From positions 72,416,001 to 72,480,000 of the forward strand of contig OX597824.1 in NCBI GenBank assembly GCA_951406725.2: DNA of 64,000 nucleotides, read 5' to 3'. This stretch comes from Octopus vulgaris (Eukaryota). The position numbers are program-made. Position 1 is the stretch's first letter; each line of letters opens with the position of its first letter. Below, one piece after another: positions 18,201 to 26,372 of this stretch.

Positions 18201-21200
18201 CCTGTTTTAGTTTTCAGTTTCCAAAGCATTTATGAACTACCTCAGTGAGGTTCTTGTATACATTCATTTACATTGTATGCCACTTTATAGACTCAAATTT
18301 ATCTTTAAAACCTGTATGCTCCACATTTATTACACCGGTAGTCAAACATCTGGTGTCAAATTTGATTGAAACAATAATATTGAAAGGCTGTGCTGCTGCT
18401 GAGAATTTGTTTATCCCAAGAATTCCTTTTGGTTTAATTTTACGACTGTAGTTCTCAATCAGTATATGTTTCGCCATTGGTCCATTGACAAATCTGAGGG
18501 GTAAATTATAATAAAAAAAAGTACTCTATGTTAAGAAGCTTGCTTCCCAACCACGTGGTTCTAGGTTCAGTCCCACTGCGTAACACCTTGGGTAAATGTT
18601 TTCTACAGCCTTGGACCGATCAAAGCCTTGTGAGTGGATTTGGGAGACAGAAACTGAAAGAAGCCCATCATATGTATATATCTATGTGTGTGTGTGTGTC
18701 TTTGTATCTGTACCCTCATCATTGCTTGACAACTGGTGTTGGTACCAATAGAGTAAGTATTAGGCTAAAAATATAACACTTCAAGGTGGTGCTCCTGCAT
18801 GGCTTCAGTCAAATGACTGGAACAAAAGAATAAAAGAGTTATAAGTGGAAGAATCTTTGCTATCCCCAAAGCCAATTATAAACAACTTTGTCGTAAGTAG
18901 AAACACAAAACAACCCAAAACTCAAAGTATATTGTTTATTAAGAAGCTTTATTATATATATATACATTATTATTTTGTGCCATTAATACACTGACTTAAA
19001 TACATATATAAATATCTATATACAAATAAACATACACACAATTCATATAACAAAATAAATGAAAGTTATGTGTTACAGCTTTTGGACATCTGCCAGATAA
19101 GATTTCAGAATCATCTGGTACATATATCCAACAAATAGATTAACTGAAGTATTAAGTTATAAGAAATAAATTTCTGAGCCAGTGGCAACAGAAAAAATAA
19201 ACAAAAATCTTACAGAATATTTAAAAATATAATTCAGTAATACCCTGTCCATTCAGCTATTTCTCTTTGGAAAGTGAAGCTGAAAATCTTTCATTGACCT
19301 TCAAGTCATTTGTTTGTGACTAAAGGCTTCATCTTTTTGCAGTAATTTAAAGTCAATCCATTCTCATGGATCCCATCTCCATTTCCAGGCTATTGACTGC
19401 AGTCAGAAATTGTAGACACAAGGTATTTGTTTCCTTTTGTCTTTACACTTGCTCTTTGAATACTATCATAGGTTAGATGAGACTTCTATGGCTGGATGCC
19501 CTTTCTTGTACCAACCTTTGTTTTATTGAATTACTGCTAGATATTTTGAATGCCTGTTGTGAAGACCCACACTCAAATATGAATGCACGTGTGCGCGCGC
19601 ACACACACACATATGCTCATAGACAAATGCATATACACACATGTATACACAACAAAATCCTTACAGAACTCAGTTAGAGTGCCACAACATGTACAGCAAC
19701 ACAACAAATCAAAATGATGGAATCAGTCCTAAACAACCATTTTCTTTACTAAATTGAGTCTTTGTTAACTCTTAAAACACAGATATGGTTTCCATAGATC
19801 CAGATCAGCATCATCACACACTTTTGTATGAGTGGGCAGTAAGAAATAGAGTTAAAACTTTGCTGATATCAATGGTGGATAGAATGGTACAAATGGCAGT
19901 TTTTCTTTTATGACATCATATACATTTTGTATGAGGCTTTTGAGAAGTGTGGTGGTTGTGTACAGTGGCCAGACTCTGTGTTGGGGAATGGGGATGTGTA
20001 GGTTAGTGATGTGAAGGATAAGTCTTCCTGGAATTTTTGAGGGTGTGTAATAGCAAAGTGATGATACTATATAATGTTACTTCATTTAGAATTTTGTTTG
20101 GTTTCAGAAGTGATTTCCCTCAGCTCCAGAACCTTGGAATTTACCGATGCTGATACAGTTAGCTGTATATGTTAGTGTGTGCAGCACACAGTGTTTATGG
20201 TGGATGTTTGTAGTTTTGTCTGTCCCCGAAGCCTTTTTGACTATTTGCATATCCCTATTGCTTCTTTTAAGTGTCTGACAGGAGGAAGGGTTTAAAATAA
20301 AGGTCTAGGTAGAAGGTGCTTATCTTCTCATTTTTTGGGAGATGTAGTCTTTGAGATTGTTAGTGTGGCTGTTATTGCTGTTGATGATGATGTAGAATAC
20401 TCCATATAATGTGAATGTTAAATTTACAGCTTGTGTTGCATATGTTTACTATTTCACTGCCTTTTTGTGGTATATTTATCTTTTGTTATTTCCTTGTTTA
20501 GTTGCTCAATGCTGAGTTTTATTTTGGTTACTGATAAAGATGACAAAGTTGCTAAAGAAACAACACAGCAATTGAGTCATTAAAGAACAGCACTTAGGTT
20601 AGCACTCTGTTGGGCGATATTTGTGTGGCACAAGATACCAAAAGCAACTATTATTCATAAAGATACCCACTTGACAAAGCATCAGTAGTACTGCAGACCA
20701 GGACAATGAAGTCATGTCACTCCTATCTGATTCACAGTTGCGGTAGATAATTCTATCATTTAGATGCTGAAGTGATCGAAAGTTGTTTCCCATCATTATT
20801 CTCACTGCTGAATCATCAATCTCATCCAAACTAGTACGGAATTCAGTCATCTGTAATATATATATATATAAATGTACACATATATGTATATACATATATA
20901 AATATATTTATATATTTATACATATATATTGATATATATATATATACATATATATGTATATATATTATTATTATAAAATTATTATTTTATTTACTTATTT
21001 CAAAAATATTGTTTAAATATATTTGATTATTTATTTAACTATTATCATTCACCTAAAGATTGATTATAACCATAATTCGAATTTTTAATTGAATTTAAAT
21101 TATTGTTATTCGAATTAGGGTATGGGCATGAAACAATCGTGGTGGTTTTACTTTTTAACTTATATTAAACTTTTTAATACTTTTTGATAGTTATATATAT

Positions 21201-21453
21201 TTAATAAATAAAAAAATATTTAAATAAATAAAAAAATTAAATAAAAAAAAAATATATATATATATATATATACATATAAATTTATAAATATAAATTAATA
21301 ATTTAAAATTTTTAAGTTTAAATTTAATAATTTAAATTTTGAATTTTATATTTTATATATTTTGTATATTATATTGATTAATTTTATTTCTATGTTTTGG
21401 TTTATGTCTTTCACTGTTTGATTTGCCTAATAGTGGTTATATCTCTAATTTAA

Positions 21454-21519
<66 letters not shown>

Positions 21520-24500: not shown

Positions 24501-24668
24501 CTTTACACTTGCTCTTTCAATACTATCATAGGTTAGATGAGACTTCTTGAGGCAGTCTTCTATGGCTGGATGCCCTTTCTTATACCAACCTTTGTTTTAT
24601 TGAATTACTGCTAGATATTTTGAATGCCTGTTGTGAAGACCCACATTCAAATATGAATGCATGTGCAT

Positions 24669-24707
<39 letters not shown>

Positions 24708-26372
24708 CTCATAGACAAATGCATATACACACATGTATACACAACAAAATCCTTACAGAACTCTCCTCACCACCATCTCAACATTTTATGTTATCATGTG
24801 TGAAAACTCCAACCAGACAATCACCCACCGTTAACACTAATGCACTACTGGTACACGAAACACTCCAATATTTCCATATCTATGGAGATGTTCTTCAACC
24901 AACTTATGAAAACATGAGACAGCATGTTCCACCTCACACATCTCTTTTACTCTAATAACAACTGATGCATGAAGACCTTCACTTTCAGCGTGTCAAATGT
25001 TAATCATATAACCTTGGAACTGAGAATTTGCAGATTACATCTCATACCTACTAGTGTTATGGTTACTCAGTTAGTGTGCCACAACATGTACAGCAACACA
25101 ACAAATTAAAATGATGGAATCAGTCCTAAACAACCATTTTCTTTACTAAATTGAGTCTTTGTTAACTCTTAAACCACAAATATGGTTTCCATAGATCCAG
25201 ATCAGCATCATCACACACTTTTGTATGAGTGGGCAGTAAGAAATAGATTTGAAACTTTGCTGATATCAATGGTGGATAGAATAGTACAAATGGTAGTTTT
25301 TCTTTTATGACATTATATAGATTCTGTTTGAGGCTTTTGAGAAGTGTGGTGGTTGTGTACAGTGGCCAGACTCTGTGTTGGGGAATGGAGATGTGTAGGT
25401 TAGTGATGCCAAGAATAAGTCTTCCTGGAATTTTTGAGGGTGTGTAATAGCAAAATGATGATCCTATATAATGTTACTTCACTTTGAATTTTGTTGAGCT
25501 TCAAAAGTGATTTCCCTCATCTCCAGAACTTTGGAATTTACCGATGCTGATACAGTTAGCTGTATATGTTAGTGTGTGCAGCACACAGTGTTTATGATGT
25601 ATGTTTGTAGTTTTGTCTGACCCCGAAGCCTTTTTGACTATTTGCATATCCCTATTGCTTCTTTTAAGTGTCTGACAGGAGGAAGGGTTTAAAATAAAGG
25701 TCTAGGTAGAAGGTGCTTATCTTCTCATTTTTTGGGAGATGTAGTCTTTGAGATTGTTAGTGTGGCTGTTATTGCTGTTGATGATGATGTAGAATACTCC
25801 ATATAATGTGAATGTTAAATTTGCAGCTTGTGTTGGATATGTTTACTATTTCACTGCCTTTTTGTGGTATATTTATCTTTTGTTATTTCCTTGTTTAGTT
25901 GCTCAATGCTGAGTTTTATTTTGGTTGCTGACAAAGATGACAAAGTCGCTAAAGAAGCAACACAGCAATTGAGTCATTAAAGAACAGCACTTAGGTTAGC
26001 ACTCTGTTGGGCGATATTTGTGTGGCACAAGATACCAAAAGCAACTATTATTCATAAAGATACCCACTTGACAAAGCATCAGTAGTACTGCAGACCAGGA
26101 CAATGAAGTCATGTCACTCTTAAGTGGATCACAGCTGCGGAAGATAATTCTATCATTTAGATGTTGAAGGGGTCGAAAGTTGTTTCCCATCATTATTCTC
26201 ACTGATGTAACATCACGCTCGGCCAAATTAGTACGGAATTCATTCATCTGTAATATATATATTTATATATACATATATATTATATATATTTATATATATT
26301 ATATATATTTATATATATAAAAAAACATATATATATATATATTATATATATTCCTCTCGCTCTCCTCCTCCC

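What the first reader, a model, noticed from the sequence alone, without database searches (positions are those of the whole stretch)
20599..26247. Duplicated carbonic anhydrase last exon with clustered, almost purely non-synonymous divergence
Both 252-nt copies keep the acceptor, frame and stop. By hand count there are ~19 nt differences in the first 129 nt, giving 14 aa changes and only one purely silent codon (CAG/CAA). The last 40 codons are identical and the adjacent 3' UTR differs only sparsely. Coding sequence diverging faster than its UTR suggests selection on alternative terminal exons (two CA isoforms from one gene) or patchy gene conversion between paralogs. Changes include NFRP to NFRS and DPLK to ESDR just before the hydrophobic tail.
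Basis: partly seen in the sequence, partly recalled or inferred. Interest (0 to 1): 0.8.

Follow-up and report, generated by a model that had tools for sequence, protein, structure and literature searches.

The report
Duplicated octopus carbonic anhydrase last exon
An octopus gene for a membrane-anchored carbonic anhydrase has a second, intact copy of its last exon about 5.4 kb downstream; the front half of that exon has diverged far more than the rest of the duplication, but selection is not shown.

Summary
Two 252-nt minus-strand exon copies (25996-26247 and 20599-20850) share the acceptor, frame and TAA stop. They differ at 19 nt, all within exon nt 5-128, giving 14 amino-acid changes and 1 silent-only codon.

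They lie in a tandem duplication of about 4.3-4.6 kb that covers the last exon, 3'UTR and downstream DNA of a single Octopus alpha-carbonic anhydrase gene. This gene matches O. sinensis XP_036363247.1, which carries the proximal-type exon (83 of 84 residues).

The divergence hot-spot is real: 19/129 against 91/2762 in the rest of the block (p=1.8e-7; 1 of 20000 permutations reach it).

The "almost purely non-synonymous" pattern is about what random mutation gives (dN/dS 1.39, p=0.76). Against the O. bimaculoides ortholog, both copies carry derived changes.

Best reading: an older duplication, mostly homogenised by gene conversion, with the stretch next to the TA-microsatellite edge left unconverted. 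No database protein carries the distal exon, and its use is untested. This is an ordinary kind of event with modest interest.

The parts
25996..26247 (-). Proximal copy of the terminal exon (83 codons plus TAA). It encodes the last ~38 residues of the CA domain, a linker and a hydrophobic helix with a short tail.
   Evidence: 83 of 84 aligned residues are identical to O. sinensis XP_036363247.1 (P0001) residues 243-326. Pfam PF00194 scores 18.5 bits over exon residues 1-38.
20599..20850 (-). Distal copy of the terminal exon, with the same length, acceptor, frame and stop. It has 19 nt and 14 aa differences from the proximal copy, all in exon nt 5-128.
   Evidence: 84.5% identity to P0001. PF00194 scores 15.9 bits. 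No database protein has this C-terminus.
20722..20850 (-). Divergence hot-spot in distal coordinates; the partner stretch is 26119-26247. 19 of 129 nt differ.
16390..20959 (.). Distal (downstream) duplicated block: terminal exon, 3'UTR and downstream DNA. It holds a copy-specific insertion at 16694-18113.
   Evidence: Colinear BLAST chain. Outside the exon, 91 of 2762 aligned positions differ.
22044..26351 (.). Proximal (upstream) duplicated block. It holds copy-specific insertions at 22509-23271 (related to 41697-42463, 89%, inverted) and 24764-25064.
20960..22043 (.). Junction between the two blocks: AT-rich, with TA microsatellites (20856-20965, 21252-21292, 21456-21516) and a palindromic MITE-like element (about 21808-22050) abutting the lower end of the proximal block.
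26253..27147 (.). TA-microsatellite arrays in the intron just upstream of the proximal exon (26253-26425, 26798-26912, 26998-27147). Recognisable homology between the blocks ends here.
   Evidence: The distal upstream flank aligns about as well to the non-homologous array 27040-27144 (83.8%) as to its positional partner.
40925..41082 (-). Penultimate CA exon (P0001 residues 191/192-243). Its donor is CAG|GTAAGG in phase 0, so either terminal copy would join in frame.
48776..48848 (-). CA exon (P0001 residues about 167-191).
58606..58698 (-). CA exon (P0001 residues 136-166). It includes the third zinc-ligand histidine, H137.
63082..63227 (-). CA exon (P0001 residues about 87-135). It includes HFHWG with zinc ligands H112 and H114. 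Exons for residues 1-85 lie beyond the window end.
20518..20523 (-). AATAAA hexamer 76 nt after the distal stop. The proximal copy has the same hexamer at the same offset (25915-25920).
   Evidence: This is a consensus match only.

Best explanation
**Shown.**
- The window holds the 3' part of one Octopus gene (O. sinensis/vulgaris group) for a membrane-anchored alpha-carbonic anhydrase. Its closest solved relatives are human CA XII and CA VII.
- A block of about 4.3-4.6 kb, containing the terminal exon, 3'UTR and downstream DNA, is tandemly duplicated with a period of about 5.0-5.65 kb.
- The upstream (proximal) exon is the one in the annotated O. sinensis protein.
- The blocks differ by 3.3%, except for the first 128 nt of the exon, which differ by 14.7%.
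- Both copies carry changes relative to the O. bimaculoides ortholog.

**Inferred.**
- The duplication is older than 3.3% suggests. Interlocus gene conversion has kept most of the block similar.
- The roughly 130 nt next to the point where homology ends, in a TA microsatellite, has escaped conversion and keeps the older divergence.
- In that stretch, replacements accumulated in both copies at family-variable positions (a beta-hairpin and the juxtamembrane linker), at a rate indistinguishable from neutral.
- The distal exon lies beyond the proximal exon's AATAAA, so it is probably used rarely or not at all.
For: **Structure of the duplication.** There are five colinear HSPs at 92-97% identity and three copy-specific insertions. 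Only one CA gene is present, and only its last exon is duplicated.

**Hot-spot.** 19/129 against 91/2762 (p=1.8e-7); scan-corrected 1 of 20000.

**Synonymous sites.** They are also raised: 3 observed against 0.86 expected at the flank rate (P=0.056). dN/dS is 1.39, not different from 1 (p=0.76). Both fit an older coalescence better than selection alone.

**Comparison with O. bimaculoides X1, P0022.**
- In the 5' half, the amino-acid distances are nearly equal: proximal-distal 14, proximal-Obim 10, distal-Obim 12, each of 43.
- Six changes are derived in the distal copy, 4 in the proximal copy, and 4 are ambiguous.
- In the 3' half, the two copies are identical to each other, yet both differ from O. 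bimaculoides at 6 residues plus 1 indel.
- That identity therefore reflects recent common ancestry of this segment rather than strong constraint.

[quoted passage not shown] They attribute it to the decay of gene conversion there.

**Use of the proximal copy.** It is 83 of 84 identical to XP_036363247.1. No protein of 147-2000 aa carries the distal type. AATAAA lies 76 nt after both stops.
Against: - **Other edges.** The other edge of the block shows no comparable rise (6/110 in 16390-16499). Nor do the borders of the internal insertions (1-5.3% per 100 nt).
- **Intron side.** The intron side of the hot-spot is TA-rich low complexity. Its 13/103 mismatches say nothing either way.
- **Substitution spectrum.** The exon has 7 transitions to 12 transversions. 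The background has 62 to 29 (p=0.017). A merely older neutral divergence does not predict this.
- **Conserved columns.** The 14 replacements avoid the 9 family-conserved columns (0/9 against 14/34, p=0.020).
- **Intact distal copy.** The distal ORF, acceptor and stop are all intact, which hints at some coding constraint. Chance retention is not small, though: P(no stop) is 0.66-0.80, and about 1.4 indel events are expected in 252 nt over both lineages.
- **Missing data.** No nucleotide outgroup and no transcript data were available.
Confidence: 0.5

Rival explanations
1. Both copies are used as alternative terminal exons. This would give two membrane-anchored CA isoforms that differ in a surface beta-hairpin and in the linker before the membrane helix. 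Positive selection would have driven the 5' halves apart while the anchor stayed identical.
For: - Both copies keep the same acceptor, frame, stop and AATAAA.
- Both acceptors are equally poor in pyrimidines, with a longest run of 2-3 against 7-12 at four internal exons. Neither is therefore disabled relative to the other.
- Non-synonymous divergence is 16/103, about 4.7 times the 3.3% flank rate (my arithmetic).
- There is a transversion excess (p=0.017).
- Replacements avoid the conserved columns (p=0.020). They fall in a low-confidence hairpin (P0001 residues 252-258, mean pLDDT 56 for residues 251-260) and after the last strand (residues 279-286).
- The O. bimaculoides ortholog has an annotated alternative 3' end, isoform X2.
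Against: - dN/dS within the exon is 1.39 and not significant (p=0.76).
- Synonymous sites are raised too.
- No protein with the distal C-terminus was found among proteins of 147-2000 aa. O. sinensis has a single unnumbered model.
- The distal exon sits downstream of the proximal poly(A) signal.
- The distal copy scores slightly lower against PF00194 (15.9 against 18.5 bits). It also replaces a Pro that 13 of 20 family members keep.
Confidence: 0.2
2. The duplication is young (about 3%). The hot-spot was then created by one or two complex events: a short conversion tract from a third CA-like sequence elsewhere in the genome, or multi-nucleotide mutation clusters.
For: - Differences bunch at exon nt 20-43 (8 differences) and nt 107-128 (7 differences), with only 3 in between.
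- The gap-variance test gives P=0.028.
- Four pairs of adjacent differences and a transversion-rich spectrum are present.
- The first bunch is mostly derived in the proximal copy and the second mostly in the distal copy.
Against: - Scan statistics for clustering within the 129 nt are not significant (P=0.16-0.47).
- The only Octopus paralog available (P0023) matches the distal copy at just 1 of the 14 variable sites, and that site is the ancestral Y36.
- No third copy exists in the window.
- The representative-library search with the distal 5' half returned 3 hits. The two I scanned are unrelated repeat proteins, and the third was not examined.
Confidence: 0.1
3. Assembly artefact: two haplotypes, or a collapsed and re-expanded repeat, laid down in tandem.
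For: The junction is TA microsatellite plus a palindromic element, which is hard to assemble. Read depth could not be checked.
Against: - There is no N anywhere in the window.
- The blocks differ by 3.3% overall and 14.7% in the exon half, and carry three insertions of 0.3-1.4 kb. Reported O. vulgaris heterozygosity is 1.22% (PMC10700109, one passage read; the value rests on a supplement I could not see).
- Each copy has its own derived and ancestral states against O. bimaculoides.
Confidence: 0.07
4. A young duplication in which the distal copy is simply a decaying, unused pseudo-exon, with no gene conversion and no selection.
For: The N:S ratio is neutral-like. No distal-type protein was found.
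Against: - Neutral decay would give the flank rate, about 4.3 differences in 129 nt, not 19 (P=1.3e-7).
- At least 4 of the 14 replacements are on the proximal lineage, the copy found in the annotated protein.
Confidence: 0.05

Closest known systems
Human carbonic anhydrase XII (PDB 9r31, 4ht2, 1jcz) and CA VII (6g4t)
   Same: These are the best solved-structure matches to the orthologous protein P0001 (E about 4e-44 over residues 25-281). The protein is an alpha-CA domain with the zinc histidines H112, H114 and H137. That CA XII itself has an N-terminal signal-like helix and a C-terminal membrane helix is recalled from memory. The P0001 model shows helices at residues 2-25 and 294-316.
   Different: This is a distant relative, not an ortholog of CA XII. 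A duplicated terminal exon is not something I know of for CA XII (from memory, not searched). Human CA XII has Q where the octopus copies have P or S after NNFR (alignment).
Octopus sinensis 'carbonic anhydrase 7-like' XP_036363247.1 and O. bimaculoides 'carbonic anhydrase 12' isoforms X1 and X2
   Same: The O. sinensis protein matches the window's exons at all but 2 of about 241 covered residues and uses the proximal-type last exon. O. bimaculoides X1 has the same architecture and length, 326 aa.
   Different: Neither carries the distal-type exon. O. bimaculoides X2 ends two residues after the penultimate exon and lacks this exon altogether. Whether those genomes hold the duplication could not be checked.
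Tandem exon duplication giving alternatively used exons (Kondrashov & Koonin 2001; Letunic, Copley & Bork 2002; both recalled, not read here)
   Same: Two homologous exons lie in tandem with the same phase and the same splice acceptor.
   Different: The known cases are mostly internal, mutually exclusive exons with transcript support. This one is a terminal exon copied together with its UTR and poly(A) signal, and no transcript evidence is available.
Gene-conversion decay at the edges of duplicated blocks (Osada & Innan 2008, PMC2588116; passages read)
   Same: Identity is high in the body of a tandem duplicate, and paralogous divergence is elevated at the border of recognisable homology.
   Different: Here only one of the two outer edges shows the rise, and that edge coincides with coding sequence. 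Selection therefore cannot be excluded.

Membership tests
Alpha-carbonic anhydrase (Pfam PF00194) | Significant match to the family profile | tested here: met
   P0001, the ortholog of the window's gene, scores 258.5 bits against a cut-off of 27 over residues 32-281. The isolated exon peptides score 18.5 and 15.9 bits. Both are below the cut-off, as expected for a 38-residue fragment of the domain.
Alpha-carbonic anhydrase (Pfam PF00194) | Three zinc-ligand histidines | tested here: met
   H114 is invariant, and H112 and H137 are nearly invariant, in alignment A1. The window encodes HQVHFHWG and VHILHY (tblastn). Their role as zinc ligands is recalled from knowledge of the family.
Alternative last exons arising from tandem exon duplication | Two homologous terminal exons with intact acceptor, the same phase, a stop codon and a poly(A) hexamer | tested here: met
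   These are sequence consensus features only.
Alternative last exons arising from tandem exon duplication | Transcripts or proteins that use each exon | tested here: not met
   Only the proximal-type protein P0001 was found, among 5 and 6 candidates of 147-2000 aa. This is weak evidence: shorter proteins were not searched and RNA-seq data are not available here.
Interlocus gene conversion between tandem duplicates | Significant mosaic of divergence levels along the duplicated block | tested here: met
   19/129 against 91/2762, p=1.8e-7, with scan-corrected P=5e-5. The low-divergence patch 20224-20722 is not significant after correction (P=0.086).
Interlocus gene conversion between tandem duplicates | Segments with different histories relative to an outgroup | tested here: inconclusive
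   At protein level only. The 5' half is nearly equidistant three ways (14, 10 and 12 of 43). In the 3' half the copies are identical but differ from O. bimaculoides at 6 residues plus 1 indel. No nucleotide outgroup was available, and it is unknown whether O. bimaculoides has one copy or two.
Interlocus gene conversion between tandem duplicates | Elevated divergence at both edges of the block | tested here: not met
   The far edge has 6/110 differences. Only the exon-side edge is elevated.
Positively selected duplicate (dN/dS above 1) | A non-synonymous rate significantly above the synonymous rate | tested here: not met
   dN 0.174, dS 0.125, ratio 1.39, Fisher p=0.76. The random-substitution control gives P(14 or more changed codons)=0.31.

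The most novel reading that the evidence does not exclude
The octopus gene would express both terminal exons. That would make two membrane-anchored carbonic anhydrases with identical anchors but different versions of a surface hairpin and juxtamembrane linker. The ectodomain-coding halves would have been driven apart by positive selection in both copies, with non-synonymous divergence about 4.7 times the flanking rate. Gene conversion would keep the anchor and UTR uniform. This would be a terminal-exon analogue of mutually exclusive exon pairs.
Probability: 0.15. Interest if true: 0.5.

Novelty: new member of a known kind. Interest (0 to 1): 0.27.

Why it matters
If the distal exon is used, this would be a compact example of isoform birth by terminal-exon duplication in a cephalopod, with conversion and divergence partitioned inside a single exon. 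If it is not used, it is a textbook-style illustration of two points. A high share of amino-acid changes between two short copies is what random mutation gives. And uneven gene conversion can make coding sequence look faster-evolving than its UTR. In either case, annotators of this locus should know that there are two candidate last exons.

Tried and rejected
1. **Representative-library search.** I ran the search of protein representatives with the 43-residue distal 5' half. It gave 3 hits at E of 0.001 or better. The two I scanned are unrelated repeat proteins: P0024 (DUF11/CHU_C) and P0026 (FNIP repeats). P0025 was not scanned. The search did not recover the P0001 cluster, so it does not help with the question of a paralog donor.
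2. **Intron flank as a neutral yardstick.** The flank 20851-20959 against 26248-26351 has 13/103 mismatches. I rejected it because the distal flank aligns about as well to a non-homologous TA array (27040-27144, 83.8%).
3. **Sub-clustering of the 19 differences.** Scan statistics are not significant (P=0.16-0.47). Only the gap variance is marginal (P=0.028).
4. **Junction homology.** I searched the junction 20960-22043 against the upstream intron and the downstream flank and found nothing outside low-complexity sequence.
5. **RNA genes.** There are no tRNA genes and no Rfam families in the window.
6. **Literature.** Searches for an octopus CA exon duplication found nothing: 0 papers for 'octopus' + 'carbonic anhydrase' + 'exon duplication'. 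Of 15 papers for 'octopus' + 'carbonic anhydrase' + 'membrane-bound', none of the 10 listed concerns this gene (listing only).
7. **Left unchecked.**
Orthologous loci, other paralogs and nucleotide outgroups were therefore not examined.
   - The window's exons were searched one by one and were not joined into a spliced model, and no distal-exon isoform was built. Whole-protein work used the database protein P0001.
   - The window is octopus, not human.
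Full report
**What is there.**
- On the minus strand, two 252-nt stretches at 25996-26247 (proximal) and 20599-20850 (distal) are each preceded by the identical TATATTACAG. Both are open in frame 0 for 83 codons and end in TAA.
- They differ at 19 positions, all between exon nt 5 and 128. Fourteen codons change the amino acid and one is silent only.
- From nt 129 on, the copies are identical for 161 nt, which runs to 37 nt past the stop.
- The first 300 nt of 3'UTR differ at 6 positions.

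**The gene.**
- The proximal exon peptide retrieves one protein, XP_036363247.1 'carbonic anhydrase 7-like [Octopus sinensis]' (P0001, 326 aa).
- tblastn of P0001 on the window finds one minus-strand gene. Its exons lie at about 63227-63082, 58698-58606, 48848-48776 and 41082-40925, plus the terminal exon. Only the terminal exon is present twice.
- Residues 1-85 lie beyond the window end.
- The window differs from P0001 at 2 of about 241 covered residues (F214Y, and Y to F at exon codon 36). It therefore comes from O. sinensis or a close relative such as O. vulgaris, and it is not human.
- The donor at 40925 is CAG|GTAAGG in phase 0, so either terminal copy would join in frame.
- P0001 is an alpha-CA (PF00194, 258.5 bits) with the zinc histidines. 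Its closest solved relatives are human CA XII and CA VII (E about 4e-44).
- An AlphaFold model of P0001 (mean pLDDT 80.9) places a helix at residues 294-316 inside the shared tail. The protein is probably membrane-anchored.
- I searched the exon peptides one at a time. Whole-protein work used P0001.

**The duplication.**
- The exon copies sit in a tandem duplication. The colinear segments are 16390-16693 / 22044-22348, 18114-18273 / 22349-22508, 18270-18743 / 23272-23741, 18767-19671 / 23807-24763 and 19668-20959 / 25065-26351, at 92-97% identity.
- There are copy-specific insertions at 16694-18113, 22509-23271 (a repeat also present, inverted, at 41697-42463) and 24764-25064.
- The block covers the exon, the UTR and about 4 kb downstream, but only about 100 nt of recognisable intron. 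Upstream of both exons lie TA microsatellites.
- The junction (20960-22043) is AT-rich and ends in a palindromic MITE-like element.
- There is no N in the window.

**Is the divergence pattern unusual?**
- Outside the exon the blocks differ at 91 of 2762 aligned positions (3.3%). The exon's first 129 nt differ at 19 (14.7%) (Fisher p=1.8e-7).
- After correcting for scanning, 1 of 20000 permutations reaches 19 in any 129-column window. This is the one solid anomaly.
- The identical 3' half is not exceptional. A longer identical run (202 nt) occurs in the UTR. The low-divergence stretch 20224-20722 (6/499) has a scan-corrected P of 0.086.

**Is it selection?**
- Nei-Gojobori counting gives 16 non-synonymous differences on 103 sites and 3 synonymous on 26. 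dN/dS is 1.39 and the Fisher p is 0.76.
- Nineteen random substitutions would on average change 12.6 codons and leave 3.8 silent-only. The observed 14 and 1 are not significantly different (P=0.31 and 0.084). 'Almost purely non-synonymous' is thus close to the neutral expectation.
- Synonymous sites are themselves raised over the flank rate: 3 against 0.86 expected (P=0.056). This fits an older coalescence of this segment better than selection acting alone.
- Two features point the other way:
  - The exon differences are rich in transversions (7:12, against 62:29 in the flanks; p=0.017).
  - The 14 replacements avoid the 9 family-conserved columns (0/9 against 14/34, p=0.020).
- The replacements fall in a low-confidence beta-hairpin (P0001 residues 252-258) and at or after the last strand (residues 279-286).
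- P26S affects a position that is Pro in 13 of 20 relatives but Gln in human CA XII.

**Direction of change.**
- The O. bimaculoides ortholog (isoform X1, P0022) serves as a protein-level outgroup.
- Six differences are derived in the distal copy: N2T, N7S, P26S, S38N, D40E and P41S.
- Four are derived in the proximal copy: D9A, S14T, A15S and Y36F. The last of these is absent from O. sinensis.
- Four are ambiguous.
- In the 5' half the three sequences are nearly equidistant (14, 10 and 12 of 43). In the 3' half the two copies are identical, yet both differ from O. bimaculoides at 6 residues plus an indel.
- So the tail is not strongly constrained, and its identity reflects recent shared ancestry. 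The 5' half has a much deeper split.
- The only other Octopus paralog I could obtain (P0023) does not resemble the distal copy at the variable sites.

**Interpretation.**
- The most economical reading is an older tandem duplication whose body has been kept similar by interlocus gene conversion. The roughly 130 nt abutting the end of homology has escaped.
- Osada & Innan (PMC2588116, passages read) describe exactly such raised paralogous divergence at block edges.
- Weaknesses of this reading:
  - The other outer edge (6/110) and the insertion borders show no rise.
  - The TA-rich intron flank cannot be used as a yardstick.
  - The transversion excess is unexplained.
- The alternative is strong positive selection on both copies. 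Non-synonymous divergence is about 4.7 times the flank rate (my arithmetic). This reading needs the distal exon to be expressed, and that is untested.
- On expression, no protein of 147-2000 aa carries the distal exon. Both copies nevertheless keep identical acceptors, an AATAAA 76 nt after the stop, and equally pyrimidine-poor upstream tracts.
- An assembly artefact is unlikely. The copies diverge by 3.3-14.7% and differ by three insertions, against a reported heterozygosity of 1.22% in O. vulgaris (PMC10700109, one passage read; the underlying supplement was not seen).

**Verdict.** It is a lineage-specific tandem duplication of a terminal exon in an octopus alpha-CA gene. The divergence hot-spot is significant but its cause is unresolved. 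Selection is not demonstrated and isoform use is unknown. Literature searches found no description of it. It is a new instance of a known kind of event and of modest interest.

Noticed in passing
window 21808-22050: A palindromic, MITE-like inverted repeat (arms about 21808-21872 and 21867-22050, 80-93% complementary) sits exactly against the lower boundary of the proximal duplicated block (homology starts at 22044). It could be linked to the duplication breakpoint or be a later insertion.
   Followed up: partly
P0006 (O. bimaculoides 'carbonic anhydrase 9 isoform X2'), not in the window: Its C-terminus (...WETTSDHFS...) resembles the +1-frame reading of the homologous last exon. The window exon in frame +1 reads WETTFDHFS, whereas isoform X1 (P0023) reads ...GNNFRPLQ.... 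The X2 model probably reads the last exon out of frame.
   Followed up: no
P0002 (O. bimaculoides 'carbonic anhydrase 12 isoform X2'), ortholog of the window's gene: It ends two residues (DE) after the penultimate exon and lacks the terminal exon, the end of the CA domain and the anchor. An alternative 3' end is therefore annotated for the ortholog.
   Followed up: no
P0003 (O. vulgaris CAI9730463.1): This gene model carries CA residues equivalent to P0001 residues about 33-135 and 167-191. It skips the exon at 58698-58606, lacks the last two exons, and has an unrelated 130-residue N-terminus. It is probably mis-modelled.
   Followed up: no
window 30069-31681 and 31669-32344 / 36924-37622: A 1.6-kb TA-rich tandem array (periods 12, 14 and 26; GC 15%) lies in the long intron. 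Next to it is a 700-bp inverted repeat pair at 93% identity, about 4.6 kb apart.
   Followed up: no
window 11770-12194, 18529-18699, 23531-23709, 38807-39004, 43519-43996, 46375-46796, 57153-57397: An interspersed repeat family of about 200-440 bp at 81-91% identity. One pair (38807-39004 / 43519-43716) is 100% identical over 198 bp. No tRNA or Rfam match was found.
   Followed up: no
window 15570-15872 and 17305-17605: A 303-bp direct repeat at 99% identity. The second copy lies inside the insertion specific to the distal duplicated block.
   Followed up: no
window 54477-54698 (also 8033-8200 and 28107-28432): A GC-rich 63-bp tandem repeat (3.5 copies), with related copies elsewhere in the window. 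Nearby, 50001-52000 has GC 53% with a strong purine skew.
   Followed up: no
window 41082-40925 and 26142-26140 (minus strand): The window's protein differs from the O. sinensis RefSeq protein at two residues: F214Y next to the invariant Y215, and Y to F at codon 36 of the proximal last exon. At the second site the distal copy, O. sinensis and O. bimaculoides all keep Y.
   Followed up: partly
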